Shown here piece after piece: positions 29,266-61,649 of a DNA stretch of 64,000 bases. The stretch is taken from contig JBHGNT010000009.1 of assembly GCA_043228905.1 (NCBI GenBank), positions 744,001 through 808,000 on the forward strand. The letters are read 5' to 3'. A model generated the notes under the pieces. It saw nothing but the letters and a program-made list of their open reading frames with translations. It made no database searches and had not been told where the DNA came from. Numbering within the stretch: the first letter of the stretch is position 1; the number at the start of each line of letters is the position of its first letter. The translations under genes were made by a program, and so were the position numbers. This DNA comes from Azolla caroliniana (taxonomy: Eukaryota > Plantae > Polypodiophyta).

Positions 29266-31283
29266 ATGGCCACTGTTAGCGCTGAAGAATATCAATCTGT
29301 TTTCTCGGAATTTCAATGCTTGAAAGAGAAGTTCCATGCTTTGGAACAAGAAAACCAACGGTTGTTGGGGGATCTTCAGCAAATCTCCTTCGAAAAGTAG
29401 CAAACGTAACAACAACATGGGGAACTTGCGTTACGCGTGCAACAACTCGAAGCAACCATCATAACGATGCAACAACAAGGGCGCGGAACACAAGGGATTC
29501 ATAAAGAACCCAAGATTGGCCTTCCCACGAAGTTCGATGGAACGCGATCGCAGTTTAGAGGGTTCCTTAACTAGGTACGATTAGTTATTCAAATGTATCC
29601 TTCCCAGTATCCCACCGATGCATCACGAGTGGGTTTAGTAGGCACTTTGTTAAGTGGCTCAGTGTTGGCATGGTTCGTTCCACTATTAGAAAAGGAATCC
29701 CCGTTACTCAACAATTTTGAAGAGTTTCTAGGTGAGTTTAAAGCATGTTTCAGAGATACTGACAGCATCAGGACCGCAATCAACAAAATTCGGCAATTAC
29801 GCCAAGGTGACCGTCTAGCCTCTGCATATGCTGCAGATTTTCGCCTACTCGTCGCCGATATCCCTTGGGATGATCAAGCGTTGATGGAGCAATTCCGTTA
29901 TGGTTTACGCTGTCGTGCCTTTCGGCTCCGGATCGTTGCGTGAGTCGGGTGGGAACCACAGAGGTCTTGGACTAGGAGAAAGAAGTTCGTGAGATAAAGA
30001 TTAATTATGAATAAATAGCGAAGAGAAAGATAAGAAACTCGTGAATCACACGAGTATACTATATTAATTGGTACTTAGGGTGTTAAGAGAGAAGTAGATG
30101 TATAAATCGTGAATCCCACGAATAATTTTTGTATTGATTAATACTTAATCCAAATAATCAACAACCCTTTATATATTTCTCTCCTCCTTATATAAGGAAG
30201 GAAGAGCTAAGCATGGCTTCATGCTTTTTTTTTTTTTTTTACAAAAAGTGTTCATGTCCACTAAAATGTGCATGTGATGCTTTTTTATTTCCTAAGTATA
30301 GGGCTCATGCACGCTAGATGTGCATGAGTTATTTTTAGTGTCTCGTGTTTTTCTTTTTCATATATTAAAAAAATACACGATTTACCTTTTAATAAAGGTA
30401 TGCATAAATAAAGGTCTTATACGTATTAAATCTATATTTAAAACACTTAAGATAAGTTAATGTAATGGTAAGGTTGGGGTTTGTCAACGTGGAGGTGCAG
30501 AGTTTGAATCACGCCCTGCGCAGTAGTGAGTATTTCCTTTCTTTTTACATTTATGTCTCTTTATCCGGCTCTTCCTTGCCGGTATGCCGTTTTCTTCCTT
30601 GCCGGTATGCCGTTTTCCTCCTTGCCAGTATGCCGTTTTCCCTCCTTGCCGGTATGCCGTTTTTCCTCCTTGCCGGTATGCCGTTTTCTTCCGGTTCTCA
30701 CCGAGCACTCCATTCTCTATCCGGAGGGACAAAAATATAATTTCCACATAGTGTGCAACCTACACTACGACAACGCAACGACGTCAAGGATTTACTCTTG
30801 ACCTTCCTCGAAGAGCCAAAGTCCTTAACAGAAGCAATCAGTCGCGCGGTGAGATGTGACAACCGCCTCTTTGAGCAACATTCGGAACGACAACTACAGA
30901 TGCCGAGGGCAAGATCAGAGCCCACCTACGCCTCAATGGTAGCAAGACCTTTTCCGAGGGAGTCATATAATGCGCCTCCAGCGAATACTCTGACTCCGAT
31001 GGAGATTGACACTACACGTCGTCGAGGGCCATTATCCGAAGAAGAAAAGCAGCGACGCCGTACAAATAGACTATGTCTTTACTGCGGTGGACCAAGACAT
31101 ATTGCAATAAATTGCCCCCATAGGCCAAGAAGACAGGTAAACCAAATAGTCGCTAGTTCTCATTGTACTAAACTCGAGCCTATTTCAGTAGGGATATCTG
31201 ATAGTCCTAAAAGTACTAATAGCCCAAATCTAGCAAACAGATTTGATGTCCTTAGTCAGTTAGAAGAAGAGTTAAACGACTAA
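29266..31283 (+). pseudogene. gag: Chromovirus gag (stops, split by solo LTR)
   Basis: MATVSAEEY..., LPTKFDGTRSQFRGFL, LRQGDR...YAADF, QFRYGLR | NDVKD (rejoins across 29911-30772), PMEID and CLYCGGPRHIAINC. Confidence 0.9.
29911..30772 (-). mobile_element. Solo LTR (862 bp) of the Trp-primed Gypsy family B, inserted in chromovirus gag
   Basis: Reverse complement of 47079-47940, with 4-bp TSD ACGC (29907-29910 / 30773-30776). Confidence 0.95.
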
Positions 31284-34200
31284 GTCCAGCCAAAATAGGA
31301 GCCGTTTGGTTGGACAACCCTAGATCTGTGCAACCCATTAGTGGTTCCATTCCCTCTAAGCAAGTTAGTGATGTGTTCGTAGCCCAAGTAATAGTTAGTA
31401 CTAAAAGTACCCCTCTAGTACATGTCCTAGCACTCCTAGATTCCGGAGCTAACTCTTGCTTTATGGATAAGAAATTTGCTCAAGCTCATAAGATATCCCT
31501 AAGAAAACTCCAGTGTCCAGCCTCTGTAGTAGTCATTGATGGACGTCCCATTGCTTCTGGAAATATCATAGAAGAGTCAGAGCCCATTAATATTGTCCTA
31601 GATAACTTAGCTTGTGTAGTATCATTTAATATTATTAGTATCCCAGAACATCCCATAGTTTTAGGATTACCGTGGTTTGAGTTACATAACCCAGACATAG
31701 ATTGGAGAACAAGAGAAATCCGGTGTCGACAAACCCAAGGGTCAACTCAGAAGATGGCAATCATTTCGCTACGTCAGTTGCGTAAAGAAGGGCACAAGGA
31801 GGAAATGTTCCTCTTTGCAATATCAATAAACCCCTCCAACACCACTAAAGAAGGATCCACCGTTCAACTTCCCGAGAAGTATTGTCATTACGCCGATGTG
31901 TTCGATAAAGTACAAGCCAACACACTTCCTCATCATCGACCGTACGATTGCCCCATCGATTTACAACCGGGAAAAGAGCCGCCATGGGGACCGATCTACA
32001 ATTTGTCACCAACCGAGTTGGAAGTCCTTCGGGCCTATATAGAGGAGAATTTGGAAAATGGTTTCATCTGACATTCGAAATCTCCAGATGGCGCATCCAT
32101 TTTCTTCGTCAAGAAAAATGATGGATCACTTTGTCTTGTTGTAGATTACCGTGGCCTGAATAAGGTTTTAATCAGGAATAGGTATGCTCTTCCCCTTATC
32201 TCAAGTCTTTTAGAACGGATCAATGGTGCCAGGTTCTTCACGAAGATCGACTTACGGGGAGCATATAACCTCGTACGGATCCAACCAGGAGACGAATGGA
32301 AGACCGCGTTTCGCACCAGATATGGGCACTTCGAGTATACGGTCATGCCGTTCGGCCTCACTAATGCACCGACAGTCTTCCAGCACATGGCTAATGATAT
32401 ATTCCGAGATCTATTGGATGATTGTTTGATCATCTATTTGGATGATCTACTGGTTTATTCAAAGACCCAAGAAGAACATGATTCTCATGTACTATTAGTA
32501 CTAAAACGACTTCGAGAACATGGTCTGTATGCAAAGCTGGAAAAATGTAGTTTCGGGTGCAACCAAGTGGAATTTCTCGGCTACATCATTTCGTCAGAAG
32601 GCATCTCCATGGACCCAGCTAAGGTCAAAACAGTGGTAGAATGGCAGACTCCACGTTTGGTGCGGGATGTGAAATGCTTCCTAGGCTTTGCCAATTTTTA
32701 CCGGAAGTTCATACAAGATTACTCAAAGATCGTTCTACCTCTCACACAACTTACCAGGAAGGGACAATCGTTCATTTGGTCTGAAGAAACGGACGTGGCT
32801 TTCGAGAGTCTTAAAAAGGCATTTACATCGGCTCCAATTCTAGCTCATGTCGATCCAGAAAAACCATTTATTATCGAAGCTGACGCATCGGATTTTGCAT
32901 TGGGGAGCATTCTGTCACAACAAGGGAATGATGAGAAGCTACATCCTGTGGCTTTTCACTCACGCAAGTTTGACGCCGCCGAAATCAATTACGAAATTCA
33001 TGATAAGGAGCTATTGGCAATAATGGATTCTTTTATGCAATGGAGGCATTTTCTGGAGGGATCCTCTCATCCGATCACCGTATTTAGTGACCACAAGAAC
33101 CTTGCCTACTTTCAGGATGCTCGTGTGTTGAATCAACGTCAAGCTCGGTGGGCCCACTTCCTCACGCGTTTCGACTTCAAAATTACATATCGTCCGGGGA
33201 AGCACCAAGGGAAGGCAGATGCATTATCACGACGTTCGTATCTAGCACCCCGTCCCAGCGAGCCAACTTTCGATAACCAAAAACAAGTCATCTTGGGACC
33301 GGCACGACTACAAGCAACAAAGATCTTTGTCATGCCCATGGATTCCCGCGTTATCGATACCATACGCGAAGACTTGAAGACAGATGCGTTCGCCCAAGCT
33401 ATACTAGCACAAATTGATCCCTCTCGAGCGTCGTGTTCACAGTCGCAACCACCAGGTACGGACTATCGGCAATTCAAATACCATGATGGATTACTCTTCT
33501 TTAAAGAACTTTTGTATGTTCCTAATGGTTCTTGCCGCCTTCAAGTAGTACAAAACTGTCATGACACATATATAGCTGGGCATTTTGGTAGTACTAAAAC
33601 ACTACATTTAGTACAACGATCATTCGGGTGGCCCTGTATGCGACAAGTTGTCGAGGATTTTGTTCGAACTTGTGATACATGCTGTAGAGCGAAAATGCCA
33701 AGGCATCATCCATATCGTTTATTAGAACCATTACCAATTCCAAGCAAGCCGTGGCAATCCATTGCTCTAGACTTCATCACAGATCTTCCAGTCTCTAAGG
33801 GGTTCAATGCGATTCTAACGGTGGTCGATCGATATACGAAGATGGCTCATTTCTTGCCATGTATTAAGGAGATCTCCAGTGAAGACACTGCCGAAATTGT
33901 CATGCGTGAAGTATGTCGGCATCATGGACTTCCCGATAGTATCATTAGCGACCATGGACCCCAATTCGTGTCAAAATTCTGGAACACCTTTTTAACATGC
34001 TCAAGGTCACTTGTAACCTCTCCTCCGGCTACCACCCACAAACCGACGGCCAAGCCGAACGAACCAATCAAACGCTGGAGCAGTATCTGCGGTGCTTTCT
34101 CAACTATCATCAGGATGACTGGGCAGATATTCTCCACTTCGCCGAATTTGCCTATAACAACTCTATCCACGCATCCAGGAAAGTTACGCCATTTTATGCT

Positions 34201-34866
34201 TATACGGGATGTCACCCCCGGTGGTGTGTACTTGAAACCCCAGAGGTGTCCACAAATCCTTGCGCAGAGGATCGTTTGGAGAAGTTACGCAAGATACAAG
34301 CGGATTTATCTACTCATCTCCAACAAGCTCAACAAACACACAAGGTTTATGCGGATCGTCATCGACTCCCATCTAGTTTTAACATTGGAGATCGGGTATG
34401 GCTACTCCGACGACACATCAAGACTACTCGCCCATGTGAGAAGTTGGATTATCGGCGATTAGGTCTTTTCCGTATTATCGGAAAGATTAATGATGTCGCT
34501 TTTCGTCTTGATCTACCTCCACAACTTCGGATACATCCGGTGTTTCATAGTTCTCTCCTCAAACCCTATCAAGAAAGCACCATCCCAGGACGTATTACAC
34601 AACCTCCACCCCCGATCGAGCTTGAAGATGGACCTGAGTACGAGGTTGCTGCCATCCTTGATTCCAAGCTTGTTCGCAACAAGCTCTACTATCTAGTCGA
34701 CTGGCTAGGATATAGTCCCAGCGAGCGTACTTGGGAACCGATAGAGAATGTCACCAATGCTCGTGCTCTTCTTGAAGACTTCCATCGTCAATATCCAGAC
34801 AAACCGGGTCCTCAATCCAAAACGACTCGTTACACTCGTCGTTTTAAAGGGGGGATAGTGTCATGA
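31271..34866 (+). pseudogene. pol: Chromovirus pol (PR, RT, RNase H, integrase, group I chromodomain)
   Basis: ALLDSGA; IYLDD; EADASD and DHKNL; H..GH...CDTC, LDF, SDHG, DGQAER; PEYEVAAILDS....YLVDWLGY....TWEP. TGA at 32069-32071 and a frameshift near 33990. Confidence 0.92.
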
Positions 34867-35151
34867 TATGGCAAGACTCGAACCCATGACCTTATGCTAC
34901 ATGGGTCGAGCTCTTGACCATTAGACTATACATTGTAATACATAGAATATTATTTTCATTTATGTTTTATTATAGAAAATTGATGTATATTCCAGATTTC
35001 TCTGGAACATTCTAGAAGCTTCAGGACTACTCCTGAGAGCAATATAAAAGGAGGCACAAGGCATTATTTCGAACCAAATCGATTCAACGCTAGTCTTAAG
35101 CCTCCTAGCTACTGTACATTTTCTTCACATAATATATATCTTTTCTTATCA

Positions 35152-35197
<46 letters not shown>

Positions 35198-35301
35198 TCA
35201 CTCACTCCTTCCTTCTCTCGAGAGTTCTTCACCTCTCTTAGTACTAATACTTCTTTTAGTACTAATTCCTTCTCTGTCTTAGTACTGTTCCTGACAGCCA
35301 C

Positions 35302-35961: not shown

Positions 35962-37040
35962 TGTCGTCGGCCTACATCTCCCTGCAGTTTTGATATCGTG
36001 AAGATTTTTGGCTACGGTGAGAAAACCGGATGGAATGGGCAATGTTGTCAATGTGCAACATGTGCATTAGGGAATGTATGTAAAATAATAGGGGGAATTT
36101 ATCCCACATTATAACGTCCTTCTCTCTTTGGACTATAAAATCAGGGAGGGCTCTCTTGTGAAGGGGTTGCCCATTTTGAGTTAGAACTTCGGAGGGTATA
36201 TCGTTAGATCTAAGGTATGGTAGTTGTCTCTTCCTTTTACTTTCCTTTAGGGTTTGGTAACTTTCTTCTTCTTCTTTCTTTTGGTTGTTCTTCTTGGAGT
36301 GGAGGTTTAGGGTTTCTCTCGGTTTCGATCTCTCTTCTTGGTTAGGTCCGGTTTAGAGCTCGTATGATTTGAGGGTTTCCGTTCGTAGATCTGTCTCCTG
36401 TGCAAGACCCCATTCGCGTAGGCGAGCCCGAGTGCTCCTCGACTAGTGGCTTGGCGACAGACAACTGTTGTGCTTTGGTAAGAAGGCACGTCTTCAACGC
36501 AAGGCTTCCACTTGCATAGGCGAGCCCGATTACTCCCCGACTGGAGCTTGCCTGTAGACGACTGTTGTATCTATTCGGTATTGGACCATCTCGAAACCGG
36601 CAGTGTAACTTGTGTCCCTTGTAAATATATATGAGAAAACTTAGGTGTGCATATGTTTGTGTCAGCGTCTTTGGATTTCGTCCTATCGGATGTGCTTGTG
36701 ATGTGATGTGATGTGTGTGTGTATTGAGTCATTCTGTGTTGTCGCGTGTCTCCTCTTTCGGTTCGGAGACTCGTCGTCTTGTATATAAGAAGGTACGAAG
36801 AGCCGGTGTGCGTGCGTGTGCTCTCCCTCTCTTCAATCCGGTTGCTTTCAGAACGCATCCGGACCCATCCGGATCTGTTTGGTTCGGTTGGTTTCGGCTT
36901 GCATCTGGAATTGTCCCGGTTGGTGCCACAGTCGGTGTAACCGGCCCTAGAGAAATCGTCCTTCCAGTATCAATCACTCCCTAGTCCATGACCCCCGTGG
37001 TGTCGCCTTTTCCGACACGCACACGCAAATTTCTACGACA
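35962..37040 (+). mobile_element. Older solo LTR related to the Trp-primed lineage
   Basis: TGTCGT...ACGACA ends, TATA near 36133, U5 motif cctagtccatgacc..cacgcaa, and similarity to 60980-61623 (ggggttgcccattttgagttag). TSD is imperfect. Confidence 0.65.
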
Positions 37041-38334
37041 CCATGTGCTCGCATTGGAGATCGACGAGTTTTTCATTCCGACTGCGAAGCACTTGGTGGA
37101 ATACTTCTATCTATTGTAGCATCATAGCAACCGAGTTGTTCTTCCGAGTTGGCGACATTGGCGGAAGTGGGAATGGCCAGGGGGGGTGTCTTGACCCTGG
37201 ATGTTTATTGCCTGAAGCTCACGTTCGAGGTTGAAGACTCTTGCTTCTGAAGCCTGCCATAGCTCCGTCACTTGGTTGGCCTGTTTGCGGGCATGCTTAC
37301 TGCTAGAGGCCATATCCTTAGCCGCGCGGTGTCGCGTTGTTACGCGCGTACGTGTAGAAAGGGGCGGGATCACGGGGGTCTTGGACCGAGGAGCGAGAGA
37401 GAGAGAGAGACAGAGAGAGAGATTCACCGACACGTAGAAGCGAGAAAGAGAGAGATAGAATCGTAACACTTAATTATAATGACAAGAGATTACAATCCCT
37501 GACAGTTACAACCGACGAGGCGGCGACGGACCCGACACAGGGACCCTACTCACGCACACCGACGACAGTCACACGACTCCAAGAAACAAAGAGGAAAGGG
37601 AGCGACTTTGCTAGAAGCACACGGGTTGTCCACGAAGCAGAGGCAGCGCACTCCCATAGGCGGCGACGGACCCGCAGAGAACGATGGCTCGAGGAGAAGA
37701 GAGAGCTCGGCTTCCCTTCTGCAGCATCGCTTCTTTTTTCCCCCCAACGCGCGATCTCCCCCCAATCTCTTCTCCTGTTCCTTCCCTTTATTCCCTGTCC
37801 CTCCGTCTGACAGAGATACGCACCATCCCCTGATAAATGCGTGCCACTTCATATTTTCACCCACCGATCTGTTTATGAATCGGGTATGAAATATCGAGTC
37901 ACGCGTCCATCCGTGTAAGAGCCGGTTCACGCGCTTTTCTCTCCGATTCTGCCTATGGCCGGTTTTCTTCACGACATCCACCCCCACCAAACCGCGCATC
38001 CACTGGTATGCGCTAGAGACGGGTAGATATCGGAGAAATCCGGCCTCACTCGTTGCTCTCCGATTCTCCATCGGACCCGAACTGATCGTCGTCGTCGCTC
38101 CCGCTCGCAGGCTCCGGCTCGTCTTCGAACAGCTTCTTGAAAGCTTTGATCTGCTTTCCGGCCACTGACACCGCTAACCGTGTCTCATCGAATTCCGCGA
38201 GGTGGTACGTGCCGTTGCCGTTCGCGCTCGTCACTATGTAGGGCCTGAACCACCTCCTGGCAAACTTTCGCACCGCCTTGTGCTGATTGTCGAGGCTGCT
38301 GTCGTATACCAAGACCCAGTCGCCTTCCTCGATC

Positions 38335-41300
38335 TGATGTGCAAAACAGCGCTCGGTCACAAACCGAGGAACAGGGTCGATTCACAGAAAACGGGAAATG
38401 CAAGAATGCACGAAGACAATAGAGAGAAGAGTACACTGGATGTTTTACGTGGAAAACCCTAAATGGGAAAAAAACCACGGGAGTCCTCAAACTCCAACTA
38501 TCACTAAAACAGAGATGTACAATGGCGAAGCTACAAGGCAACAACCTTGAGCTCACTATCTTCACCACAGGCGGCGGTAATACACAGAGGCAACGACCTC
38601 TTCGTCTCTCTCTCTCTCGGCTGCTCTCACTTCGCTCCCTCTTCGTGGAAAACAGAAAAATGAGCAACAACATAAAACTGTTTGCCCTAAGTCATATTTA
38701 TACATATATGACTTTCGGGCTATTTACAAATATAGCCTCAAGGGACCTTGGCAAACATATTCACAAATATGTCCCCGCATCCGGATCTCTCTCCGGGTAC
38801 ATACGTCATCCGGCTCGTAACCGGGGTCTTCAGCATCCGGCTCTGTAACCGGGGTCTTCATCATCCGGATCCGCAGCCGGGTACTCTTCATCCGGCTTCA
38901 TGCCGGGTACTCTTCATCATACGGTTCCGTAACAGCCTCCGGGCTTGCCTTCATTCATCTCCGGACATCCCATCCGGAGGGACCGAAATCCCAACAAGCT
39001 CCCCCTTCACTTCGGCATGGGATGTCTCTCCAACCCGATCCTCTTCCGGCATGCTTCCAGCTTGTCGGGTGTGAGCACCTTGGTCAGCATATCCGACCCG
39101 TTCTCGTCCGTGTGGATCTTCGTCAGCACGAACTCCTCGTCTTCTATCCTCTCCCGGATCCAGTGGTATCTACGCTGGATGTGTTTCGTCCGGGAATGGT
39201 AGGCCGCGTTCTTCGCAAGGTGGATGGCACTCTGACTGTCACAGTAGAGTCGGTACTCCTCTTGCCGGATACCGAGCTCTCTAATGAAGTCCTTCATCCA
39301 TATTATTTCCTTGCCTGCTTCAACAGCCGCCATGTACTCCGCCTCCGTGGTTGACAGCGCAACCATCTTCTGCAGCCTCGACTGCCACGAAACAGCTCCA
39401 CCTGCATACGTCATCACATACCCTGATGTGGACCGGCTGGTATCTGCATCAGCCGACATATCCGAATTGGTAAAGCCGTCGAGTTCGGGCTTACCGGAGC
39501 CGAATCGGAGGCACACGTTTGCCGTGCCCTTCAGGTATCGGAGTATCCACTTGACCACGTTCCAGTGCTCTTTGCCGGGGTTGCTCATGTACCGGCTCAC
39601 CACTCCAACTGCATATCCTATGTCCGGTCTTGTACACACCATAGCGTACATCAAGCTTCCGACGGCAGAGGCATATGCTACTTTCATCATGTCCTCCTTC
39701 TCAGCCTTTGTCTTGGGGCTTTGCTTGCTGGACAACTTGCAGTTTGCCGGTAGGGTTGACCCGACCGGTCTTGCTTCCAACATGTTAAACCGGTGAAGCA
39801 CCTTTGTCACGTACTTCTCCTGTGACAGCCACAACTGCTTCTTCTTCCGGTCCCGGATGATGTGCATCCCTAGTATTTGCCTCGCCGGACCCAGGTCCTT
39901 CATTGAGAAGGTTCGGTGAAGCGCTTTCTTCAGCATCCGTATCTTGACCTGGTCCCGTCCGACGATCAACATGTCGTCCACGTACAGGAGGAGTATTAGA
40001 GAGTCTCCTCCTTCGAACTTCTTCACAAACACGCAGTGATCAGACTGCGTTTTGTGGTACCCTTCGTCGGTCATGAAGGAGTCGAACTTCCGGTACCATT
40101 GCCGGGGAGCCTGCTTCAGTCCGTAAAGGCTCTTCTTCAACCGGCATACCAGGTGCTCCTTCCTTTTCTTCTCGAATCCTTCCGGTTGCTGCATGTAGAT
40201 CTCTTCGTCGAGGTCACCGTGAAGGAATGCCGTCTTCACGTCCATCTGTTCTACCTCGAGGTCCATACTTGCCGCTATGCTCAGCACCGTCCGGATGGAG
40301 GTCATCTTCACTATCGGGGCAAATATCTCGTCGAAGTCGACGCCCTTCTTCTGCTGGAACCCCTTCACCACGATCCTGGCTTTGTATCTCAGGGGGTTTT
40401 CGGCATCTCCCGGTTTCAGCTTGAACACCCACTTGTTTCGAAGTGCCCGCTTTCCTTTCGGCAACTCCACAAGTTCATATGTGTGGTTCTCATGCAGGGA
40501 ATCCATCTCCTCCTGCATGGCACTTAACCACCTGCGGCTATGGGTGTCAAGTTTTGCTTCTTCAAAACTCTCCGGCTCCCCCTCGTCGGTCAGCAGCACG
40601 TGCTCAGGTTCCGGAAATCTCCGGGGGGCCCTTCTCTCTCTTAGAGGATATCTCCGTTCCGGAGCTTCGGTAACCGGCTCCTCCGATTCCTCTTCATCCG
40701 AATCCATTTCGGGATCGGGGCCGGTTCCGGTATCAGTTTCATCTTCCTCGGCCGGTTTTGTTTCTTCACCGTCTTCGGCCGGATCCTCGAGTGCTAACCG
40801 GTCCCTTGCCGGTCGGGACTGCTCCTCGTAGAGTTGATTCTCACCGGTCGACTTGGAGCTCTTCATCTTCTTCTCCGACTCCCAGTCGGCGAGCGTCTTG
40901 TCCTCCATGAAGATGATATCTCGACTCCTGAATATCTTCTTGTCGACCGGGTCCCATACTCGGTAGCCGAACTCGTCGTCGCCGTAACCGAGGAATATGC
41001 ATGGCCGGGTCTTTGGATCTAGCTTTCCTCTCCGGTCCTTTGCCACATGCACATATGCGAGACACCCGAACACCTTCAGATGCCGGTAGGATACTTCCCT
41101 ACCGGTCCACACTCTCTGCGGCGTGTCTCTGTCCAAAGGTACTGAGGGTGATCTGTTTATCACGTATGTCGCCGTCGACATTGCCTCAGCCCAAAACCCC
41201 TTGGGCAATTTCGCATGCGCCAGCATACTCCGGACCCTCTCCATTTTGGTCCGGTTCATCCTCTCGGCCAGCCCGTTCAGTTCCGGCGTCTTCGGCACAG

Positions 41301-47162: not shown

Positions 47163-47280
47163 GAAAACGGCATACCGGCAAGGAGGAAAAACGGCATACC
47201 GGCAAGGAGGGAAAACGGCATACCGGCAAGGAGGAAAACGGCATACCGGCAAGGAAGAAAACGGCATACCGGCAAGGAAG
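47163..47280 (+). repeat. 24-25-bp tandem repeat in family B U3
   Basis: GAAAACGGCATACCGGCAAGGA.. occurs 5 times here and in the solo LTR, 4 times in the 3' LTR (~53683-53775). Confidence 0.92.
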
Positions 47281-47944
47281 AGCCGGATAAAGAGACATAA
47301 ATGTAAAAAGAAAGGAAATACTCACTACTGCGCAGGGCGTGATTCAAACTCTGCACCTCCACGTTGACAAACCCCAACCTTACCATTACATTAACTTATC
47401 TTAAGTGTTTTAAATATAGATTTAATACGTATAAGACCTTTATTTATGCATACCTTTATTAAAAGGTAAATCGTGTATTTTTTTAATATATGAAAAAGAA
47501 AAACACGAGACACTAAAAATAACTCATGCACATCTAGCATGCATGAGCCCTATACTTAGGAAATAAAAAAGCATCACATGCACATTTTAGTGGACATGAA
47601 CACTTTTTGTAAAAAAAAAAAAGAAAGCATGAAGCCATGCTTAGCTCTTCCTTCCTTATATAAGGAGGAGAGAAATATATAAAGGGTTGTTGATTATTTG
47701 GATTAAGTATTAATCAATACAAAAATTATTCGTGGGATTCACGATTTATACATCTACTTCTCTCTTAACACCCTAAGTACCAATTAATATAGTATACTCG
47801 TGTGATTCACGAGTTTCTTATCTTTCTCTTCGCTATTTATTCATAATTAATCTTTATCTCACGAACTTCTTTCTCCTAGTCCAAGACCTCTGTGGTTCCC
47901 ACCCGACTCACGCAACGATCCGGAGCCGAAAGGCACGACACAGT

Positions 47945-47962
47945 TGGTGAACCCGACGTGAA
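47945..47962 (+). promoter_or_regulatory. Primer binding site complementary to the tRNA-Trp(CCA) 3' end
   Basis: TGGTGAACCCGACGTGAA is the reverse complement of ..TTCACGTCGGGTTCACCA, the plant cytosolic tRNA-Trp 3' end as I recall it. Confidence 0.85.
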
Positions 47963-47978
47963 AACGGGTGGCAAGGAG

Positions 47979-50009
47979 ATGGAGGCTCAACAAGCTAACA
48001 ATATGATGGCGATGTTCGAACGGATGCTTCAAGAACAACGCACGATGTCGGAGATTTCGGCATCAGTAGAGCGGCTCGTGCAACGCAACGGGCAATTTAA
48101 TGGTAAGGATGTGTCGCGATATTTGCAGGACTACAAGGCGGAGATGCTCCGGTGCCGGGCTTCGGAAGGACTGCAAGTGACATCCTTTAACCGGGTGGCG
48201 ACCGACGGGCTTCAAGGGAGTATCCACGGGTTACAAAATCCGACGTGGGAAGCATTCGAAGAGGCGTTAAAGACCACGTTTGCCATCGAGGACTCCTCCA
48301 AGGCAACACGGAGGGGATTCGAGGATTGGGTGGAAACGTCAGGTAAGGGGCTGAAGGTCCTCGAAGTGTTTTCGACATTCGAAAGTCGGTTCGGGAGGTT
48401 GTCCGCGAGAGATCAAACTATTCTTGCACCGGACAAAGTCATCATGTTTTTGCGAGCTGTGGACGTCCGGGACCGGAAAGATCTCGGAGTGCTTCTTGAG
48501 GACACGACCACCGAAAGCGGCCTCACCGAAACATGGGAAAGCGTGCGGGATATCGTCGCGCGGTACACGAAGAGGGGGCAATGGCTTGCCAACGAAGAAA
48601 AGAGGGTTTCGGAACCGATTCCGAAACCGAGAACGGGACTGGAAGACCATCAACCGAGGGCTCGGGAGATTACGGCCGAGAAGGGAGTCGACGCGTCTAC
48701 GGTGGAGCAGCTGCTGAAGGAGATGGAGAATCTAAAGATCGCGATGGTGAAGAAGTCGGATGACCGCCCCACAAGCTCCAAATATACGGATCGACGGTGC
48801 ATATGGTGCGATAGCGCCGAACACGATCGGAGGGATTGCGACGACCATAAGGAGGCGCTACGACGGGATCTCATCTACTACGAGGGAAACCGGATTCATT
48901 CGATGGACTCTCGGAAGCCACTCCGACCGAACTTCCGGAAAGGCGGCATGAAGAAGGTGCTCGAGGAGGAGTTAGCGGCAAGAAGCAACTATGCAACAAC
49001 CGCGGGAATATGTGTCGGGGAGTCATCGGGAGCGAAGGCGTCTTTCTGGCCGGAGGTGCTAGGAAACACCGAGAAAACCGACTCCAACGATATCCGAAAC
49101 ACCGCGGAAGGCGTCCGGGAAGCTACGGGATGGGAGTGCCCTGTCGACAAGAATAGCATATACGCCCTGTGTCAATTACATGAGGTGTATGTGGACGAGA
49201 AACGACGGCGCACGGAGGATGCGGCCGGACCATCGAAGATACCGGAAAGCTGGAACTCCGGAGGTAAGGGAAAAGAAAAGGCGACTCCGGCATTCAAGCT
49301 CGCCTCGGACATAGAACAACAAACCGACTTGAAAAGAGTGTTCGAGGAAAGAATCTTGGATAGCCGGGTAGATTTTTCGTTGCGGGAACTACTCGGAATA
49401 GCGAAGAAGGAGTTTCACGATCTTCTCGTGGATCTCGTGAAAAGGAAGAGACAAAGTACGGAGGAAAATGCTCCAAGGGTGAATGCAAATACCGTTTCAA
49501 CGAACGACACCGAAGTGGAAGGCGAAATTCCGAACTCCCACTATACAAGGCCACACTGGGCCCGTGCGACTACGGAGACTCCGGTCCGAATCGGCAACAT
49601 CAAAGAACCCGTGCTAGCATTGATTGATCACGGATCGGAGATCAACTTGATGTCCGAGTTCTACCGAAAGGGGAAGTGGCCTATAAACACCAACCATGGA
49701 TGGAAGATTCGGGCAGCCACGAAAACGACAGAAGACCTATTTGCGGCTTGTCCGGATGTGACGGTAAAGATCGGGGATGTCGAAATTGACCAAAATTTCT
49801 TTGTGCAGGATGAGGTTTCACATTCTGTCATCCTCGGCCAACCCTTTATCACGGCTTCACGGATGGAGACGAAGGTGCTCGATAGTGGTGTGGCTTTTGC
49901 GCGAATTCGGAGCCAAAACGGAGGGAAATCCGTCCAATTCCTAACGGTGCCGGCAAATCACGAAAGGAACAAGAGGGAACTCTTGCCCCAAGTGAGAATG
50001 GATTTTTAA
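47979..50009 (+). CDS. gag: Gag-protease ORF of family B (~676 aa)
   Basis: FNGKDVSRYL, zinc knuckle CIWCDSAEHDRRDC, aspartic protease ALIDHGSEIN...VILGQPF, all before the stop. Confidence 0.9.
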   Translation: MEAQQANNMMAMFERMLQEQRTMSEISASVERLVQRNGQFNGKDVSRYLQDYKAEMLRCRASEGLQVTSFNRVATDGLQGSIHGLQNPTWEAFEEALKTTFAIEDSSKATRRGFEDWVETSGKGLKVLEVFSTFESRFGRLSARDQTILAPDKVIMFLRAVDVRDRKDLGVLLEDTTTESGLTETWESVRDIVARYTKRGQWLANEEKRVSEPIPKPRTGLEDHQPRAREITAEKGVDASTVEQLLKEMENLKIAMVKKSDDRPTSSKYTDRRCIWCDSAEHDRRDCDDHKEALRRDLIYYEGNRIHSMDSRKPLRPNFRKGGMKKVLEEELAARSNYATTAGICVGESSGAKASFWPEVLGNTEKTDSNDIRNTAEGVREATGWECPVDKNSIYALCQLHEVYVDEKRRRTEDAAGPSKIPESWNSGGKGKEKATPAFKLASDIEQQTDLKRVFEERILDSRVDFSLRELLGIAKKEFHDLLVDLVKRKRQSTEENAPRVNANTVSTNDTEVEGEIPNSHYTRPHWARATTETPVRIGNIKEPVLALIDHGSEINLMSEFYRKGKWPINTNHGWKIRAATKTTEDLFAACPDVTVKIGDVEIDQNFFVQDEVSHSVILGQPFITASRMETKVLDSGVAFARIRSQNGGKSVQFLTVPANHERNKRELLPQVRMDF

Positions 50010-53000
50010 AGCAGACTGTTGTGGAGTGGGGAAGTGATAGTCCGAGAAGCCCTGATACCCCACACAGGAAGAAAACTCTCGGAGCAAAACAAGTACGAAT
50101 CGGCCCGGATGGGGCATCTACGTACACGGCCGTAACCGGAGGAATGAAGAAACAATACCGACAAGTGGAGGATAAGTTACGGTCGGCATCAATAATAAAA
50201 GAAGACGAAGAAATCGTGGGAGTGATCGAGGAAGTGTTCTATGGGAATACACTACAACGGCTTGAAGAGCTTGCGAAAGATAAAAGCCAAGGGAACCGGG
50301 TAGTCCCGGTGGAATCGGTCGAGATGTACGAGATCGTTGCGAAAATGGGGCCGGATGCGCTCCGCAAAGAAGAAGCAATGGTAAGTACGAAATACAAGAC
50401 TGTGGAGAAGAAGGTGAAACCGGCCGCGGGACCACTACCCGCCGATAGCGAACAAAAGAGGAAAGAAGTCTCGGGAGATCCGACACTTCGGAAGACCGTG
50501 GATATCGGACATGCCTTCACAGATGAGACCCGGAAGAAACTTCGGATCGGTGGAGGTGGGTTCCTCTTACAAGAAGAAGAAAAACGGTTTCGAGAGATGT
50601 TGGAGCAACACGGCAAAGCATTCGCGTTCACATCGAGGGAGATCGGATGCATTGATCCAAAGATAGTGGAGCCGATGGTGATCTTCACGATTGATCATGT
50701 ACCGTGGAACCTGAAGCCGATTCCGGTGCCACGGGCGCATATTCCGAAAGTCATCGACTTGCTCAAGGAGAAGGTGGCGATGGGGATTCTAGAGCCATCA
50801 AGTGCTCCGTACTCAAATCGATGGTTTACGGTTCCGAAGAAGAATGGGTCACTCCGATTCATCCAAGACTTGCAACCGGTGAACAAGGTCACGATCCGGA
50901 ACTCGGGAGTCGGTCCGATAGTGGATGAATTCGCGGAAGCTTTTGCCGGACGTGCGATATACTCCATCGGGGACCTATACTCGGGGTATGACCAATTCCA
51001 ACTAGCCGTGGAGAGCCGAGACATCACTACCATGCGGACACCGATAGGACTAGTTCGAATGTGCACACTACCACAAGGAGCGACAAACTCGGTTGCACAT
51101 ATGATGAACGCGATGAACAAGGTGCTTCGAGATTGCATCCCGGAGATAACGATGCCGTTTCTAGATGACATTCCGATGAAAGGATGCGCGGTGGAAGAAA
51201 AAGATGAGACTATGGATGATCGGGGATGCCGAAAGTTCGTGGTCGACCATATTCATGATTGCGAGAAAGTGTTGCGAAAGCTAGAAGATGTGCACCTAAC
51301 ACTTTCCGGGGAGAAATCGGCATTCGGGCAAGAAGAAATATTGGTGGTCGGACATCTATGTGGACCCTACGGCCGAAGACCGTCACCAACAAAGATCGAT
51401 GCGATTCAAGCTATGAAGGAAGTTTGTGAGTCAACATCGGAAGTTCGAAGGTTTCTGGGTGCGTGTGCATTCTATCACATATGGATTCCGCACTATGCAC
51501 ATATAGCGGACCCGCTCTATCACTTGTTGCGGAAAGGTAAGAAATTTGAGTGGAAACCGGAACACACTAAAGCCATGAGGAAGCTCAAGAAGACACTATG
51601 GAGGGCGGAATCACTTAAGAAGCCAAGCTACGAGCGGCCAATCATAGTAACGGTTGATACAAGTCCAACCGGTATCGGGTGGGTCATCAATCAAGCCGAC
51701 TCGGATGGTTCGCGGTATCCGATCCGATTTGGAGCAAAGGTCCTCAACGAAAGGCAACGCGGATATGCACAAGTCAAAAGAGAATTGTGGGGAGTCGTGT
51801 CGGCGATAAAATCGGATCGGGATTATTTGATCGGAGCTGAAGTGGTGATCGAGACGGATTGTCTTCCGATACTCGGGATGATGCGGTGTTGTACGATACC
51901 GGATGTGGCTATGCTAAGGTGGATTGCATATGTCAAGTCACTTAATCCGGAGGTTCGACACATCTCGGGGAAGGACAACGCGGTAGCGGACATGTTATCG
52001 AGGGCGCGGTTTGAAGACGACATAACCGAATCAGATAATGAAGAAGTTTCCGAAGACTACTTCACGTCAGAACACATATGCCGAGTGAACGTGATCCGAG
52101 AATTCCGGGAAGAAGAATACGAGGGGGAAACCTTGATGATCGGGAAGATGCTACAAGAGGTCGAGGATTCAACCAATGATAAAGAAAGGAGAGCCGAGAT
52201 CCGAAGGAAGAAGAGGCAAGTCCAAAAGTTCTTCTTGGAAAACGGTTTAATATGGAGGACGCCGAAAAGACCGGATGGGATACCACTTCGAGTAGTCGGG
52301 ACGAAAGAGCAACGAAACCGGATAATGTCCGAGTTCCACGAATCCGATTGGGCTGGACATCGAGGAACATGGGCAACTTTTGTGAAAATCAAGCAAAGAT
52401 ATTGGTGGAAGAACATGTATAAAGATGTCGCGGAGTTCACAGAAAGCTGCGAGAAATGTCAAGTCTACTCCGGGGTCCGACACCGAGATGAGCTGCATCC
52501 GACATTCTCACCGACAATCAACTTCAAGTGGATGGTCGACATTGTAGCTATGCCGACCGGGATTGGACAAAAGAAATACTTGGTGTTAGCTCGAGAAGAT
52601 CTCACAAACCAAGTTGAAGGTCGAGCGCTTCGGAGGAAAACGTGTGCCGCGGTGTGCCAATTTCTTTTGGAAGAAGTGTTTTGTAGGTACGGCTGCGTAG
52701 GACAAGTGATTGCGGACCGGGGAGAACTCGACTCGGACAAAGCTAGGGGATTCTTCGCCAAACATGGAGTTCGGTTAACGTTGACAACGGCCTACAATCC
52801 GGAGGCCAACGGGAAGATCAAACGAGGACATAGTCCGATCGTGAAAGCACTTGCGAAGGCATGCGACGGAAGGGTGAAGGATTGGCCACAAATGCTTCCG
52901 TATGCACTATGGGCGGATCGGACGACGCATAGCTCCGTGACCGGTTACATGCCGGCAGAACTCATGACCGGACAAGCACCGGTAATGCCAACGGAAACCG

Positions 53001-53611
53001 CAATCGCGACATGGACAATACTACCGTGGAAGGAAGAGATGAGCCGGGAAGAACTACTAGCGGTCCGGATACGACAACTGGAGGGAAGACCGAAAGATGT
53101 AGCAGAAGCGTCACGCCGACAACAAGAAGCACGGTTCCGGAACAAAAGCCGGTTCGACACAAAGCACCGACTACGACCGAGGAGGATTGAAGAAGGAGAT
53201 TGGGTGATCGTCTATGATAGTAGCTTGGACCATCAACATACAACGATGCGGAAATTCGCGAAAAGGTGGTTCGGGCCGTACGAGGTTCGGAAGGTCTTCG
53301 ACAACGGGACGTACCGACTGTCCGAGTTGGATGGAACAATACTACGAGTGCCTATAGCCGGGAAGCGGGTGAAGATTTTCAAGAAGCGGACCGACGACAA
53401 ACCTTATGTGATCCAAGTCGAGGCCGACAACGAGGAGCAATCGGACGAAGACCACAATGATGCGGGAAGCGAAGAAAGTGGATTACAACTCATAATCGAC
53501 ATAAGGGGAGAATCGGAGGAAGCTTCGGATGAAGACGGATACGAAGAATCAAGAACTTCGGCACATACCGGAGGATGTGCGGGTTTGGAGGGGGCGAGTG
53601 TCGTAGTGTAG
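50000..53611 (+). CDS. pol: RT-RNase H-integrase ORF of family B (-1 frame relative to gag-PR)
   Basis: DLYSGYDQF, LPQGATNS, PFLDD, VDTS..ELW..ETDC..NAVADMLSR, HESDWAGH..CEKC, VD..ADRG..NGKIKRGH and a GPY motif; no chromodomain. Confidence 0.92.
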   Translation, partial: GFLKQTVVEWGSDSPRSPDTPHRKKTLGAKQVRIGPDGASTYTAVTGGMKKQYRQVEDKLRSASIIKEDEEIVGVIEEVFYGNTLQRLEELAKDKSQGNRVVPVESVEMYEIVAKMGPDALRKEEAMVSTKYKTVEKKVKPAAGPLPADSEQKRKEVSGDPTLRKTVDIGHAFTDETRKKLRIGGGGFLLQEEEKRFREMLEQHGKAFAFTSREIGCIDPKIVEPMVIFTIDHVPWNLKPIPVPRAHIPKVIDLLKEKVAMGILEPSSAPYSNRWFTVPKKNGSLRFIQDLQPVNKVTIRNSGVGPIVDEFAEAFAGRAIYSIGDLYSGYDQFQLAVESRDITTMRTPIGLVRMCTLPQGATNSVAHMMNAMNKVLRDCIPEITMPFLDDIPMKGCAVEEKDETMDDRGCRKFVVDHIHDCEKVLRKLEDVHLTLSGEKSAFGQEEILVVGHLCGPYGRRPSPTKIDAIQAMKEVCESTSEVRRFLGACAFYHIWIPHYAHIADPLYHLLRKGKKFEWKPEHTKAMRKLKKTLWRAESLKKPSYERPIIVTVDTSPTGIGWVINQADSDGSRYPIRFGAKVLNERQRGYAQVKRELWGVVSAIKSDRDYLIGAEVVIETDCLPILGMMRCCTIPDVAMLRWIAYVKSLNPEVRHISGKDNAVADMLSRARFEDDITESDNEEVSEDYFTSEHICRVNVIREFREEEYEGETLMIGKMLQEVEDSTNDKERRAEIRRKKRQVQKFFLENGLIWRTPKRPDGIPLRVVGTKEQRNRIMSEFHESDWAGHRGTWATFVKIKQRYWWKNMYKDVAEFTESCEKCQVYSGVRHRDELHPTFSPTINFKWMVDIVAMPTGIGQKKYLVLAREDLTNQVEGRALRRKTCAAVCQFLLEEVFCRYGCVGQVIADRGELDSDKARGFFAKHGVRLTLTTAYNPEANGKIKRGHSPIVKALAKACDGRVKDWPQMLPYALWADRTTHSSVTGYMPAELMTGQAPVMPTETAIATWTILPWKEEMSREELLAVRIRQLEGRPKDVAEASRRQQEARFRNKSRFDTKHRLRPRRIEEGDWVIVYDSSLDHQHTTMRKFAKRWFGPYEVRKVFDNGTYRLSELDGTILRVPIAGKRVKIFKKRTDDKPYVIQVEADNEEQSDEDHNDAGSEESGLQLIIDIRGESEEASDEDGYEESRTSAHTGGCAGLEGASVVV

Positions 53612-56600
53612 GTTGCACACTATGTGGAAATTATATTTTTGTCCCTCCGGATAGAGAATGGAGTGCTCGGTGAGAACCGGAAGAAAACGGCATACCGGCA
53701 AGGAGGGAAAACGGCATACCGGCAAGGAGGAAAACGGCATACCGGCAAGGAAGAAAACGGCATACCGGCAAGGAAGAGCCGGATAAAGAGACATAAATGT
53801 AAAAAGAAAGGAAATACTCACTACTGCGCAGGGCGTGATTCAAACTCTGCACCTCCACGTTGAAAAACCCCAACCTTACCATTACATTAACTTATCTTAA
53901 GTGTTTTAAATATAGATTTAATACATATAAGACCTTTATTTATGCATACCTTTATTAAAAGGTAAATCGTGTATTTTTTTAATATATGAAAAAGAAAAAC
54001 ACGAGACACTAAAAATAACTCATGCACATCTAGCGTGCATGAGCCCTATACTTAGGAAATAAAAAAGCATCACATGCACATTTTAGTGGACATGAACACT
54101 TTTTGTAAAAAAAAAAAAAAAGCATGAAGCCATGCTTAGCTCTTCCTTCCTTATATAAGGAGGAGAGAAATATATAAAGGGTTGTTGATTATTTGGATTA
54201 AGTATTAATCAATACAAAAATTATTCGTGGGATTCACGATTTATACATCTACTTCTCTCTTAACACCCTAAGTACCAATTAATATAGTATACTCGTGTGA
54301 TTCACGAGTTTCTTATCTTTCTCTTCGCTATTTATTCATAATTAATCTTTATCTCACGAACTTCTTTCTCCTAGTCCAAGACCTCTGTGGTTCCCACCCG
54401 ACTCACGCAACGATCCGGAGCTGAAAGGCACGACAACGTAGTCCATTCCGACGTACGGGGACCGGCACAGACGGCTACATTCGGCGGATGCCGATATTAC
54501 GTGCTCTTCATCGACGACTTCTCTAGGCACACTTGGATTTACCCAATGCGGCAAAAGAGCGAAGTGTTCGGACACTTCCAAAACATTCAAGAATGAAGTC
54601 GAGAAAGCCACGGGCCGACATGTATGTTGTCTTCAATCGGACGGCGGCAAGGAGTACTTCTCAAACGATTTCACGGCGTATCTCCGAAAGGAAGGAATTC
54701 GGCGAGAATTCACTTGCCAACACACTCCGTAACAAAACGGGGTAGCCAAGCACAAAAATCAGCACATCCTCGAAGTAGCGCAGGCCATGATGAACGAGAA
54801 GCATATGCCCAAGTCATATTGGGCCAAAGCTGCAAATACGACCATCTACCTAATGAACCGGTGTACAACATCCGGCGTGCACAAGGTCACTCCGCATGAA
54901 AAATACTTCAAAAAGAAGCCAGACTTATCACACACCCGAATATTTGGGGCGATAGCGTACGTGCACATCCCTGACGAGAAGCGTCAAAAGCTTGACCTGA
55001 AATCAGAGAAATGTATCCTCGTAGGATACTCATTGGAGCAAAAGGGGTACAAGTGCTACAACCCATCAACTCGAAAATCTCGAGTAAGTCGAGACGTCGT
55101 ATTTGACGAATCTGCATCCTGGTACGCACCAAAGACAACTTCGACTCTGACTCCGACTCCGCTCAACCCGGAATCCGCCGAACAAGAGGTAGAGGATGAA
55201 GATCGCCTTACGCGCATTTTCGAAGAAAGTCCGATCACGACCCGACTGAGCGGACCACAAGAGCCTTTGAGCGATCAAAGCGCATCACGACCTAGCCCGA
55301 AGATGGACAAAGGCAAGGCGAAAATGTCGGAATACGAAGACGATCGCTTCGATGACGATGAGTCGACTCACTCACTCGACAGTGAGTTCGGTGGCTTCGA
55401 TGTACCAATTGGAGCTAAGAAAGCCCTCATCTCTGCAAATGAAAAGCTTTGTCTCTCCACCCGTGAAAAGAATCCGGTCAGCCGATTCGGCTACAACGAC
55501 TACATGGCATATCACTATGCCTTTATGATGAAGGTGGCGATAGTACGCGAGCCAGAAAAATTCTCCGAAGTAGCCAAGGATCTGCGATGGATCGAAGCCA
55601 TGAACGAGGAGATGCATGCACTACGCAAGAACAAGATGTGGGATCTCGTTCCCACCTCACCACACAAAAAGGAGATCGGATGCAGATGGATTTACAAAGT
55701 GAAGTACAACGTTGGCGGTTCTGTCAACCGCTACAAAGCGCGACTCGTAGCGAAAGGCTACGCCCAAACGGACGGAGTTGACTACAAGGAAACCTTTTCC
55801 CCGGTGGCAAAGATGACGATGGTACAGACCGTAATTGCGCTTGCCGCGGCGAATGGGTGGCACCTCCATCAAATGGACGTCAAGAACACCTTTCTACAAG
55901 GCGAATTAGAAGAGGAGGTGTACATGATACAACCACCCGGCTTCAACTCGAGCACCCATCCGAAAGCTGTATGCTGACTCAAGAAGCCACTCTACAGCCT
56001 CAAACAAGCACCACCTGCTTGGCATTCGAAGATAACGCAATATCTTCATCACATCGGCTTCCGCATGTCAAAATCAGACAACTCTCTCTACATACGAAGC
56101 AATTCCGCAAGTCCGATCGTCATCATCTTATATGTGGATGACCTAGTCATTGGAGGTGAGCATCTCGTCGAAATCAAGAAGGTTAAAACCCTCCTTTCCG
56201 ACAAGTTCAAGATGACGGACATGAAGAAGCTCCACTACTTCCTCGGCATCGAGGTAATTCGGACTCCGGCCGGAATCATGATCTCTCAACGGCACTACAT
56301 CCTCAACTTGTTATGGGTGAAAGCATGAGAGTGGAAACAATTAGCTATGTCCTTGACATAGCTAATTAGCTATGCAAAAAGCTACCATTGATAAATAGTC
56401 ATTTTAGTAAAAGCCATCATTAATAAATTAACTATGCAAAAAACTACCATTGAAAATACTAGAGTGTTTTAATTACATATGTAAATGAGTGCCATAAATG
56501 TGCAACATAAACATGCAACATAAATTGATATGTGCACCATAAATGTGTACCATAAATTATATATCGAATTCCTAGGTCCATTATGCATGATCCTTTGCCA

Positions 56601-56679
56601 CATCACGTAGGCCATCTCTAGTTGAGTATTGTGGGTTAGTTGCTACCACTGTTGCTAAACCCTATCAAATCCACCTGCC

Positions 56680-60944: not shown

Positions 60945-61623
60945 AGAATCATATCCGATTCTTTATAGGTCCCTTATAGAGGGGTTGCCCATTTTGAGTT
61001 AGGAGGGTATACCGTTAGGTTTAGGGTTTGGGGGTTTTCTCTTAATCTTATTTTCTTAGGGTTTCATTTTGGTCTTCGTCTTCTTTGTCTTATGGGTTTG
61101 ATTCCTTCTTCTTGAGTGGAGGTTTAGTATTCCGTTTAGTTTCTTCTTCTTCTTCTCCCCCTTCGTGTCTGTCTAGGGTTTTAGCCCGGTGAAGAGCTTG
61201 TATGTTCTGTGGGGATTTACTTCTGCTCGGCCTCCTGTGCAAGACCCTGCTCGGCGCAGCAAGCCCGAGAGCTCCCCGACGGCGGCTTGGCAGCAGACTG
61301 TTGTTGTGACCTAGCTTACCTCAGTCCGGCTCAAAGCCGGAGTTGTAACTCACTCTTGTAATCATATATATAAAGGGTTGTGCATATTTGTGTCTCTATT
61401 GGTGTCGGGTGCATTTCTTTCCCGTTGTTTCCTGTACATAAGAGGCGTGTGTTGTGTCGGTGTTGCACGCGTGCTCTCTCTCTCTCTCTCTCCTTTTCTC
61501 TCTCTCTTGTGTTCGATTGCCCCTGGTACATGTCCGGGGTCAGTTTCTTCGCATGCCTTCCTCCCTCGTCCAAGACCCATGTGGTCCCACCCCTTCTACA
61601 CGCACGTGCGTAATAACGTGACA
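60945..61623 (+). mobile_element. 3' part of another LTR of the Trp-primed lineage
   Basis: Similar to 36163-36480, has the U5 motif gtccaagacc..acacgca, ends CGTGACA and is followed by ACGT. Confidence 0.65.
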
Positions 61624-61649
61624 ACGTACCGGCAGAATACCGCGACAAC

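What the first reader, a model, noticed from the sequence alone, without database searches (positions are those of the whole stretch)
29907..61627. Integration sites of the Trp-primed lineage are centred on CpG
Seen: the 4-mers flanking LTR ends are ACGC (true TSD at 29907/30773), GCGC (47075-47078), ACGT (54436-54439), GCGG (37326-37329) and ACGT (61624-61627), all NCGN. The older solo LTR has CTGG/CCAT, which are the two deamination products of a central CG. The insertions lie in or next to other TE-derived DNA and none is in the CpG-poor gene region. Inference: the integrase may read a central (possibly methylated) CpG, steering insertions into young TEs and away from genes without a chromodomain. 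The sample is only 5-6 sites.
Basis: partly seen in the sequence, partly recalled or inferred. Interest (0 to 1): 0.75.

Follow-up and report, generated by a model that had tools for sequence, protein, structure and literature searches.

The report
CpG-targeting Phygy-type retrotransposons in fern
A family of jumping genes in this plant genome, likely a fern, inserts almost only at the two DNA letters CG, a habit already published for its likely moss relatives (Phygy), and this alone accounts for its scarcity in CG-poor DNA, so reading of methylation is not needed, though it remains untested.

Summary
The CpG-centred target is real and genome-wide. 299 of 316 LTR starts not preceded by the polypurine tract in family A follow NCGN, against 4.5% CG per position in random DNA. 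A sister family gives at least 228 of 279. A chromovirus and a copia of the same window show no such bias. The trait is published: Neumann et al. 2019 define the moss lineage Phygy by a 4-bp NCGN duplication, mostly Trp priming and no extra domain, and these elements fit; tree placement could not be tested. The host is probably a fern; I found no paper on NCGN targeting in ferns. Corrections: only one window site is a true duplication; GCGC/ACGT are two sites joined by recombination; CTGG/CCAT needs a third change. Insertion neighbourhoods match random CpG sites (6.3% vs 7.5% CpG-poor; random positions 27.9%), so sequence readout alone explains the bias towards repeats. Methyl-CpG reading is unsupported: no reader domain, no matched TG/CA duplication. 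It is not excluded, because CpGs here look methylated. Verdict: new member of a known kind, modest interest.

The parts
29907..29910 (.). Left copy of 4-bp target-site duplication ACGC
   Evidence: the first 9 spanning sister copies of the host chromovirus examined are continuous across the site, the 7 closest with a single ACGC
29911..30772 (-). Solo LTR of family A inserted in the gag region of a Tcn1-like chromovirus
   Evidence: 99.5% identical to LTR 47079-47940; ends TGT...ACA
30773..30776 (.). Right copy of the duplication ACGC
28770..35296 (+). Host and control: Tcn1-like chromovirus, LTRs 95.7% alike, chromodomain, 5-bp duplication GCCAC
   Evidence: PF00385, PF24626; Tcn1 name inferred from chromodomain, 5-bp TSD and size against the table
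35962..37040 (+). Old solo LTR related to family B (72-76% over about 200 bp); flanks CTGG (35958-35961) and CCAT (37041-37044)
   Evidence: its exact 23-nt end occurs once in the genome
37326..37329 (.). Host 4-mer at the 3' end of a family-B element (GCGG on +, CCGC in element orientation); partner copy lost
37330..37976 (-). 3' LTR of family B, after a purine tract
   Evidence: end motif has 443 genomic matches
38335..43773 (-). Control: young copia nested in family B, LTRs 99.1% alike, 5-bp duplication CGATC
43694..46657 (-). Family B pol (RT, RNase H, integrase), integrase 58% identical to family A
47075..47078 (.). Host 4-mer GCGC, native sequence of family B
   Evidence: 6 of 7 sister matches carry GCGC at this place
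47079..47940 (+). 5' LTR of family A
47945..47961 (+). Primer-binding site; match to the 3' end of tRNA-Trp is recalled, not tested by a call
   Evidence: same motif in 35 of 80 related metagenome loci
47880..50009 (+). gag-protease reading frame (stop to stop, 709 aa)
   Evidence: only DUF4100 found
49886..53611 (+). pol reading frame: RT, RNase H, integrase, acidic tail; no chromodomain or second RNase H found
53581..53598 (+). Polypurine tract before the 3' LTR
53599..54435 (+). 3' LTR of family A, from a different insertion than the 5' LTR
   Evidence: 96.6% to the 5' LTR against a median 0.28% divergence in 47 pairs with matched duplications
54436..54439 (.). Host 4-mer ACGT, native sequence of a copia integrase gene
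   Evidence: sister copia copies carry ACGT (2 of 5) or ACAT (3 of 5) there
60946..61623 (+). Truncated LTR of the B/C group; its 5' part is cut by the copia ending near 60944
61624..61627 (.). Host 4-mer ACGT at the LTR 3' end
16334..18308 (-). Berberine-bridge-enzyme-like host gene in the CpG-poor half of the window; nearest named relatives are ferns

Best explanation
These Ty3/gypsy retrotransposons, likely members of the Phygy lineage, insert with a 4-bp duplication centred on CG, and their integrase likely recognises the CG letters themselves whether or not they are methylated. Shown: the 4-bp NCGN duplication, avoidance of T at position 1 and A at position 4 in family A, no detectable reader domain, and insertion neighbourhoods that match random CpG sites. 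Inferred mechanism: a symmetric intasome cuts both strands 4 bp apart and kinks the target at the central pyrimidine-purine step, as in foamy virus. Added base-specific contacts narrow that step from any YR to CG. Inferred consequence: gene regions and old repeats have lost most CpGs (o/e 0.37 in window 1-27000) while young TEs keep them (o/e 0.9-1.3), so the element is steered passively into young TEs, its own kin included. Methylation would act through past CpG decay in the host, not through being read.
For: 299 of 316; at least 228 of 279 in B/C. 75 matched duplications, all VCGB but one (T at 1 or A at 4: 1 of 150 vs 47.8 expected; CG itself was partly selected in this set). Controls: CG anywhere in the 5-mer in 2 of 17 chromovirus and 2 of 16 copia flanks. 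TG and CA are each more common than CG (6.7, 6.8 vs 4.5%), yet none of the 7 TG/CA flanks whose partner was found is a matched duplication; 4 keep CG on the other side, 1 is ATGC/ACAC. CpG-poor surroundings 4 of 63 vs 7.5% for random VCGB sites vs 27.9% for random positions. Integrase is a plain three-domain enzyme closest to foamy virus and Ty3. 4-bp-TSD integrases favour central YR and avoid T/A at the edges (PMC4422553, passages). Drosophila ZAM-group elements target CGCG (PMC5408687, passages); that the fly has almost no CpG methylation is recalled.
Against: No methylation data for empty sites, and no biochemical test. CpGs in these LTRs mutate about 4 times faster than CHH cytosines (40 of 5368 vs 37 of 19888; 24 of 201 vs 35 of 800 distinct contexts), so targets may well be methylated; if nearly all CpGs are, genome counts cannot tell the two readings apart. 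The background is only 40 stretches from parts of 12 contigs. CpG-poor DNA is an imperfect stand-in for genes: host-gene domains in 4 of 9 such stretches, TE domains in 3 or 4. Present-day copies are filtered by selection. No residue that reads the CG was identified.
Confidence: 0.7

Rival explanations
1. The integrase needs or strongly prefers methylated CpG (direct contact with the 5-methyl groups, or easier bending of the methylated step), and so is drawn to methylated DNA.
For: CG cytosines in young LTRs mutate faster than CHH ones and non-CG duplications look like deamination products, so target CpGs are methylated at least after insertion. A 1992 paper on CpG methylation and retroviral integration in vitro is a precedent (title seen in a reference list; text not held; its result is recalled).
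Against: No reader domain found. No matched TG or CA duplication, although thymine mimics the methyl group. Insertions follow VCGB availability in CpG-rich and CpG-poor DNA alike. CGCG targeting exists in Drosophila. In a tree fern genes are CG-methylated too, so the proposed benefit is doubtful.
Confidence: 0.12
2. Sequence readout of CG plus a separate chromatin tether (host factor or nucleosome feature) that favours TE-rich heterochromatin.
For: 62 of 75 sites lie in repeats vs 418 of 600 random positions (p 0.021). Weak A/T excess 10 bp either side of the site (p 6e-4 uncorrected, one of 13 positions). Phygy nested in Tcn1 is common in moss and Phygy is enriched at liverwort centromeres (PMC6911290, PMC12885004, passages).
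Against: Against random VCGB sites there is no excess of repeats: 82.7% vs 90.3%, bootstrap difference -0.18 to +0.02.
Confidence: 0.13
3. Pure shape readout: the intasome wants a flexible YR step, and CG is simply the best one.
For: YR preference is general for 4-bp-TSD integrases (PMC4422553).
Against: TG, CA and TA steps together are about four times as common as CG but give no matched duplication among the resolved sites.
Confidence: 0.04
4. Artefact: small sample, CpG-rich surroundings, or LTR-end miscalls.
For: The window holds one true duplication, and its TE half is CpG-rich.
Against: Genome-wide counts, matched pairs and two control families in the same DNA.
Confidence: 0.01

Closest known systems
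Phygy clade, non-chromovirus Ty3/gypsy of Physcomitrium patens (Neumann et al. 2019, PMC6317226; passages and supplementary file 3 read)
   Same: 4-bp duplication, NCGN preference, mostly tRNA-Trp priming, no extra domain, no extra ORF, coding region filling the internal part.
   Different: Host is probably a fern, whereas Phygy was described as specific to P. patens. Family A is about 7.1-7.5 kb vs 7.7-10.0 kb. Family A narrows the motif to VCGB; family B accepts TCGN and NCGA. No sequence comparison with Phygy itself was possible.
TatI (OTA/Tat clade, same table)
   Same: 4-bp duplication and tRNA-Trp priming.
   Different: TatI always carries an archaeal-type RNase H and has no listed NCGN bias; Pfam found no second RNase H here.
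Drosophila ZAM/Tirant group (PMC5408687, passages)
   Same: Ty3/gypsy-group integrases with a palindromic target centred on CpG-rich sequence (CGCG).
   Different: Errantivirus lineage in insects, target CGCG rather than NCGN; relationship not tested here.
Prototype foamy virus intasome (PMC4422553, passages; PDB 3oym, 4bac) and Ty3 intasome (7q5b)
   Same: Best sequence and fold matches; foamy virus makes a 4-bp duplication with a kinked central YR step and avoids T at the joining position.
   Different: Their sequence bias is weak; here CG is near absolute. The position aligned to foamy virus Ala188 holds a conserved Glu (76 of 77 rows).
Chromoviruses such as Tcn1 (RLG1)
   Same: Accumulate in TE-rich DNA; one hosts the solo LTR here.
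   Different: Chromodomain, 5-bp duplication, no CG bias.

Membership tests
Phygy | 4-bp target-site duplication | tested here: met
   63 of 74 fetched CG-selected family-A sites plus 12 earlier pairs have identical 4-mers on both sides; 8 of 12 resolved family-B pairs
Phygy | NCGN insertion preference | tested here: met
   299 of 316 and at least 228 of 279
Phygy | tRNA-Trp primer-binding site | tested here: inconclusive
   A constant 17-nt site follows 5' LTRs; its match to tRNA-Trp is recalled, no host tRNA was compared (none in the window)
Phygy | No chromodomain, no archaeal RNase H, no extra ORF | tested here: met
   Pfam scan of both reading frames; the two frames fill the internal region
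Phygy | Size 7656-9968 bp | tested here: inconclusive
   Most family-A full copies are 7.1-7.5 kb, slightly below the moss range; the authors rate size as a weak character
Phygy | Monophyly with Phygy in RT/RH/INT trees (the primary definition) | not testable with these tools
   No labelled Phygy sequence was available; the named hits among the 120 listed were Riccia proteins at 50-68%
TatI | Archaeal RNase H in the polyprotein | tested here: not met
   No such Pfam domain in the 709-aa or 1241-aa frame
Chromovirus | Chromodomain after the integrase | tested here: not met
   Absent in families A and B, present in the neighbouring chromovirus
Selgy | tRNA-Ala priming, 4.4-6.7 kb | tested here: inconclusive
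   Family A is longer than the Selgy range; primer identity rests on recall
Methyl-CpG-reading protein | MBD, SRA or other known reader domain | tested here: not met
   None in Pfam; Foldseek rows shown are all integrases. A reader built into the core is not excluded
Methyl-CpG-reading protein | Preference for methylated over unmethylated target | not testable with these tools
   Needs methylome data or biochemistry

The most novel reading that the evidence does not exclude
Phygy-type integrases are intrinsic methyl-CpG readers: the intasome itself contacts the symmetric 5mCpG at the kink, so a retrotransposon finds silenced DNA through the host's methylation mark with no chromodomain or tether, in mosses, liverworts and ferns alike.
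Probability: 0.12. Interest if true: 0.8.

Novelty: new member of a known kind. Interest (0 to 1): 0.33.

Why it matters
Near-absolute dinucleotide targeting is rare among plant LTR retrotransposons; Neumann et al. name Phygy as the only exception. Finding it in several families of a probable fern, with relatives in liverworts, suggests an old and conserved integrase property rather than a moss oddity. Family A is very young (median LTR divergence 0.28%) with about 300 sites, a good set for the open question of how an integrase reads a central base step and whether 5mC matters. The data also suggest a simple shielding model: CpG decay in gene regions makes them poor targets, with no chromatin reader needed. 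Duplicated CpGs double as small clocks of methylation-driven mutation.

Tried and rejected
Small-sample artefact: rejected. General property of LTR elements in this DNA: rejected by two control families. TE targeting beyond CpG content: not found. GCGC/ACGT as one mutated duplication: rejected, the flanks are two different hosts. Extended target consensus beyond the 4-mer: only a weak A/T signal at 10 bp and 3 bp. Bisulfite runs: none was listed, which is no evidence. Mapping the CG-reading residue: the C-terminal domain had no sequence match in the PDB, and its single-sequence model (pLDDT 67) gave no Z above 4.9; uninformative. A link to fungal Ylt1-like elements was a recalled lead; the passages read (PMC5014426) gave no Ylt1 target motif, so it was dropped. 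PMC7466625 (passages) and PMC12810828 (passages) held nothing on CpG targeting. The family-B pair analysis rests on 20 of 60 planned stretches, so the 18% non-NCG residue of B/C was not resolved. Five family-A starts with GA at positions 2-3 were not examined. The large element table and sequences of Neumann et al. were not among the 5 supplements held and could bear on membership.
Full report
Setting. The window is G000:C9:744001-808000 of a 523-Mb genome. Bases 1-27000 are gene-type DNA, GC 0.36 and CpG o/e 0.37; 28000-62000 is a nest of retrotransposons with CpG o/e near 1. A host oxidase gene has fern proteins as nearest named relatives (57-63%), so the host is probably a fern. This rests on one gene.

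Anatomy. Family A: LTRs of about 860 bp, a primer-binding site at 47945, gag-protease and pol frames, a purine tract and a 3' LTR. Pfam finds RT, RNase H and integrase, and no chromodomain or second RNase H. A solo LTR of A sits in a chromovirus gag with a true ACGC duplication. The copy at 47079-54435 is a recombinant: its left flank is family-B DNA, its right flank copia DNA, and no fetched locus spans the joint. Family B contributes the LTR at 37330-37976 and pol at 43694-46657, with an integrase 58% identical to A. The LTR end at 61623 and the old solo LTR at 35962-37040 belong to the B/C group. The window thus holds five NCGN sites and one degenerate site whose flanks, CTGG/CCAT, need three changes rather than two.

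Genome-wide test. Of 534 exact family-A LTR starts, 218 follow the purine tract and 299 follow CGN: 299 of 316, against 4.5% CG per position in 40 random 10-kb stretches. Twelve of the other 17 were listed. Two are 3' LTRs with a mutated purine tract, one is GTAG with an unrelated partner, and nine have TG or CA. For seven of the nine a partner flank was found: four keep CG and differ by that one base, one is ATGC/ACAC, two do not match. None is a matched TG or CA duplication. I fetched 74 CG-selected sites: 63 had identical 4-mers, 5 differed and 6 had no end in reach. With 12 earlier pairs, 75 duplications give the motif VCGB (T at 1 or A at 4: 1 of 150 vs 47.8 expected). For B/C, 228 of 279 non-primer ends are followed by NCG, a lower bound. 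Of 20 fetched sites 12 could be paired: 8 identical NCGN, 3 with one CG to TG/CA change, 1 changed at position 4; TCGN is accepted. Seven ends of such families harvested blind from the random stretches gave 4 CG and 3 CA. In 80 related metagenome loci, 35 carry the same primer site, and 8 of 9 visible junctions are NCGN (6 of 7 distinct; collapsed contigs, low weight). Controls from the same window have 5-bp duplications with CG anywhere in 2 of 17 (chromovirus) and 2 of 16 (copia) flanks.

Does it steer insertions to TEs? Yes, but passively. Sites lie in repeats in 62 of 75 cases, random VCGB sites in 542 of 600, random positions in 418 of 600. With 1 kb on each side, CpG-poor surroundings (o/e below 0.6) occur in 4 of 63 sites, 7.5% of random VCGB sites (95% CI 4.0-12.1%) and 27.9% of random positions. 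CpG availability therefore explains the whole bias. In the window, missing the gene half has p 0.30-0.39. Limits: a 400-kb background, survival bias, and CpG-poor DNA as a rough stand-in for genes (61 of 117 listed ORFs scanned; host-gene domains in 4 of 9 stretches).

Is methylation read? Not shown. Against: no reader domain; thymine, which carries the same methyl group, is not accepted; insertions follow VCGB supply in both compartments; CGCG targeting occurs in Drosophila (PMC5408687, passages; scarcity of fly methylation recalled); a tree fern has 88.87% mCG and CG gene-body methylation (PMC9122828, passages). For: in 47 LTR pairs CG cytosines mutate 7.5 per 1000 vs 1.9 for CHH, and CWG 25. 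Events recur at shared sites, and by distinct contexts the shares are 24 of 201, 35 of 800 and 8 of 33. So the targets probably are methylated, and genome counts cannot exclude a methyl preference.

Mechanism. The integrase is a standard three-domain enzyme (model pLDDT 79.6) closest to foamy virus and Ty3. Foamy virus bends its 4-bp target at a central YR step, avoids T at the joining base, and contacts bases through Ala188 and Arg329 (PMC4422553, passages). Family A shows the same edge rule. I infer the same geometry with added base contacts that fix the step as CG. A conserved Glu at the Ala188 position and a conserved loop before the GPY motif are untested candidates.

Known or new. Neumann et al. 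2019 state that Phygy elements prefer NCGN and list 186 elements with 4-bp NCGN duplications and 81% tRNA-Trp priming. The testable features fit; tree placement was not possible. A search for NCGN with retrotransposon listed three papers, only this one relevant by title and abstract start. Searches for Phygy (18 papers) and for Phygy with fern (3 papers) listed none on fern target sites; I saw listings only for most of these. A search on methylated CpG and target preference listed two papers, one read in passages and irrelevant. PMC6911290 reports 4-bp duplications and nesting in Tcn1 for moss Phygy (passages); PMC12885004 reports Phygy in a liverwort (passages). The library lacks most subscription papers.

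Verdict. Observation confirmed and strong, but published for the lineage. New here: a probable fern host, family-level variation (VCGB vs NCGN), and the result that CpG supply alone explains the bias away from CpG-poor DNA. Interest 0.33; methyl-reading case probability 0.12, interest 0.8 if true.

Noticed in passing
window 47941-53598 and 47079-47940: Family A is strongly depleted of CAG/CTG (o/e 0.23 internal, 0.21 LTR) while CpG is enriched (1.27); gene-type DNA shows the reverse for CpG (0.37) and CWG 0.62. Suggests long exposure to CHG methylation or selection against it.
   Followed up: partly
L009/L010, L020/L021, L122, L147: Four family-A duplications differ at position 1 or 4 exactly where the LTR end creates a new CAG or CTG, as expected from CHG deamination after insertion. 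One-sided logos will overcount A at 1 and T at 4.
   Followed up: partly
window 47079-54435: Recombination between two family-A copies deleted the DNA between a family-B element and a copia, leaving a chimeric element.
   Followed up: yes
L122 (G000:C3:21668302-21678301) and window 47075: A second family-A insertion sits at the homologous position of another family-B copy; chance, hot spot or co-mobilisation not resolved.
   Followed up: no
L123, L142, L108: Family A inserts into primer-binding sites and LTR ends of its own group, which themselves contain NCGN.
   Followed up: no
L285, L299, L301: Family B includes short copies of about 4 kb with near-identical LTRs, probably non-autonomous.
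   Followed up: no
window 52283-53443: The window copy of family A departs from its 76 aligned relatives at one catalytic position of the integrase core, so it is probably inactive.
   Followed up: no
window 56280-59497: An insert of about 3.2 kb splits the second copia; it holds 83-bp and 20-bp tandem arrays and a frame with a weak helix-turn-helix match (57494-58330), perhaps a DNA transposon or Helitron piece.
   Followed up: no
window 1-27400: Several two-copy tandem duplications of 51-129 bp lie in the gene-type half, and one of 226 bp at 28239-28692.
   Followed up: no
family A sites, 10 bp either side of the duplication: Weak A/T excess at one helical turn (p 6e-4 uncorrected), possibly nucleosomal targeting.
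   Followed up: partly
G000 genome-wide: The two control families are large: 1935 exact LTR starts for the chromovirus and 1541 for the copia.
   Followed up: no
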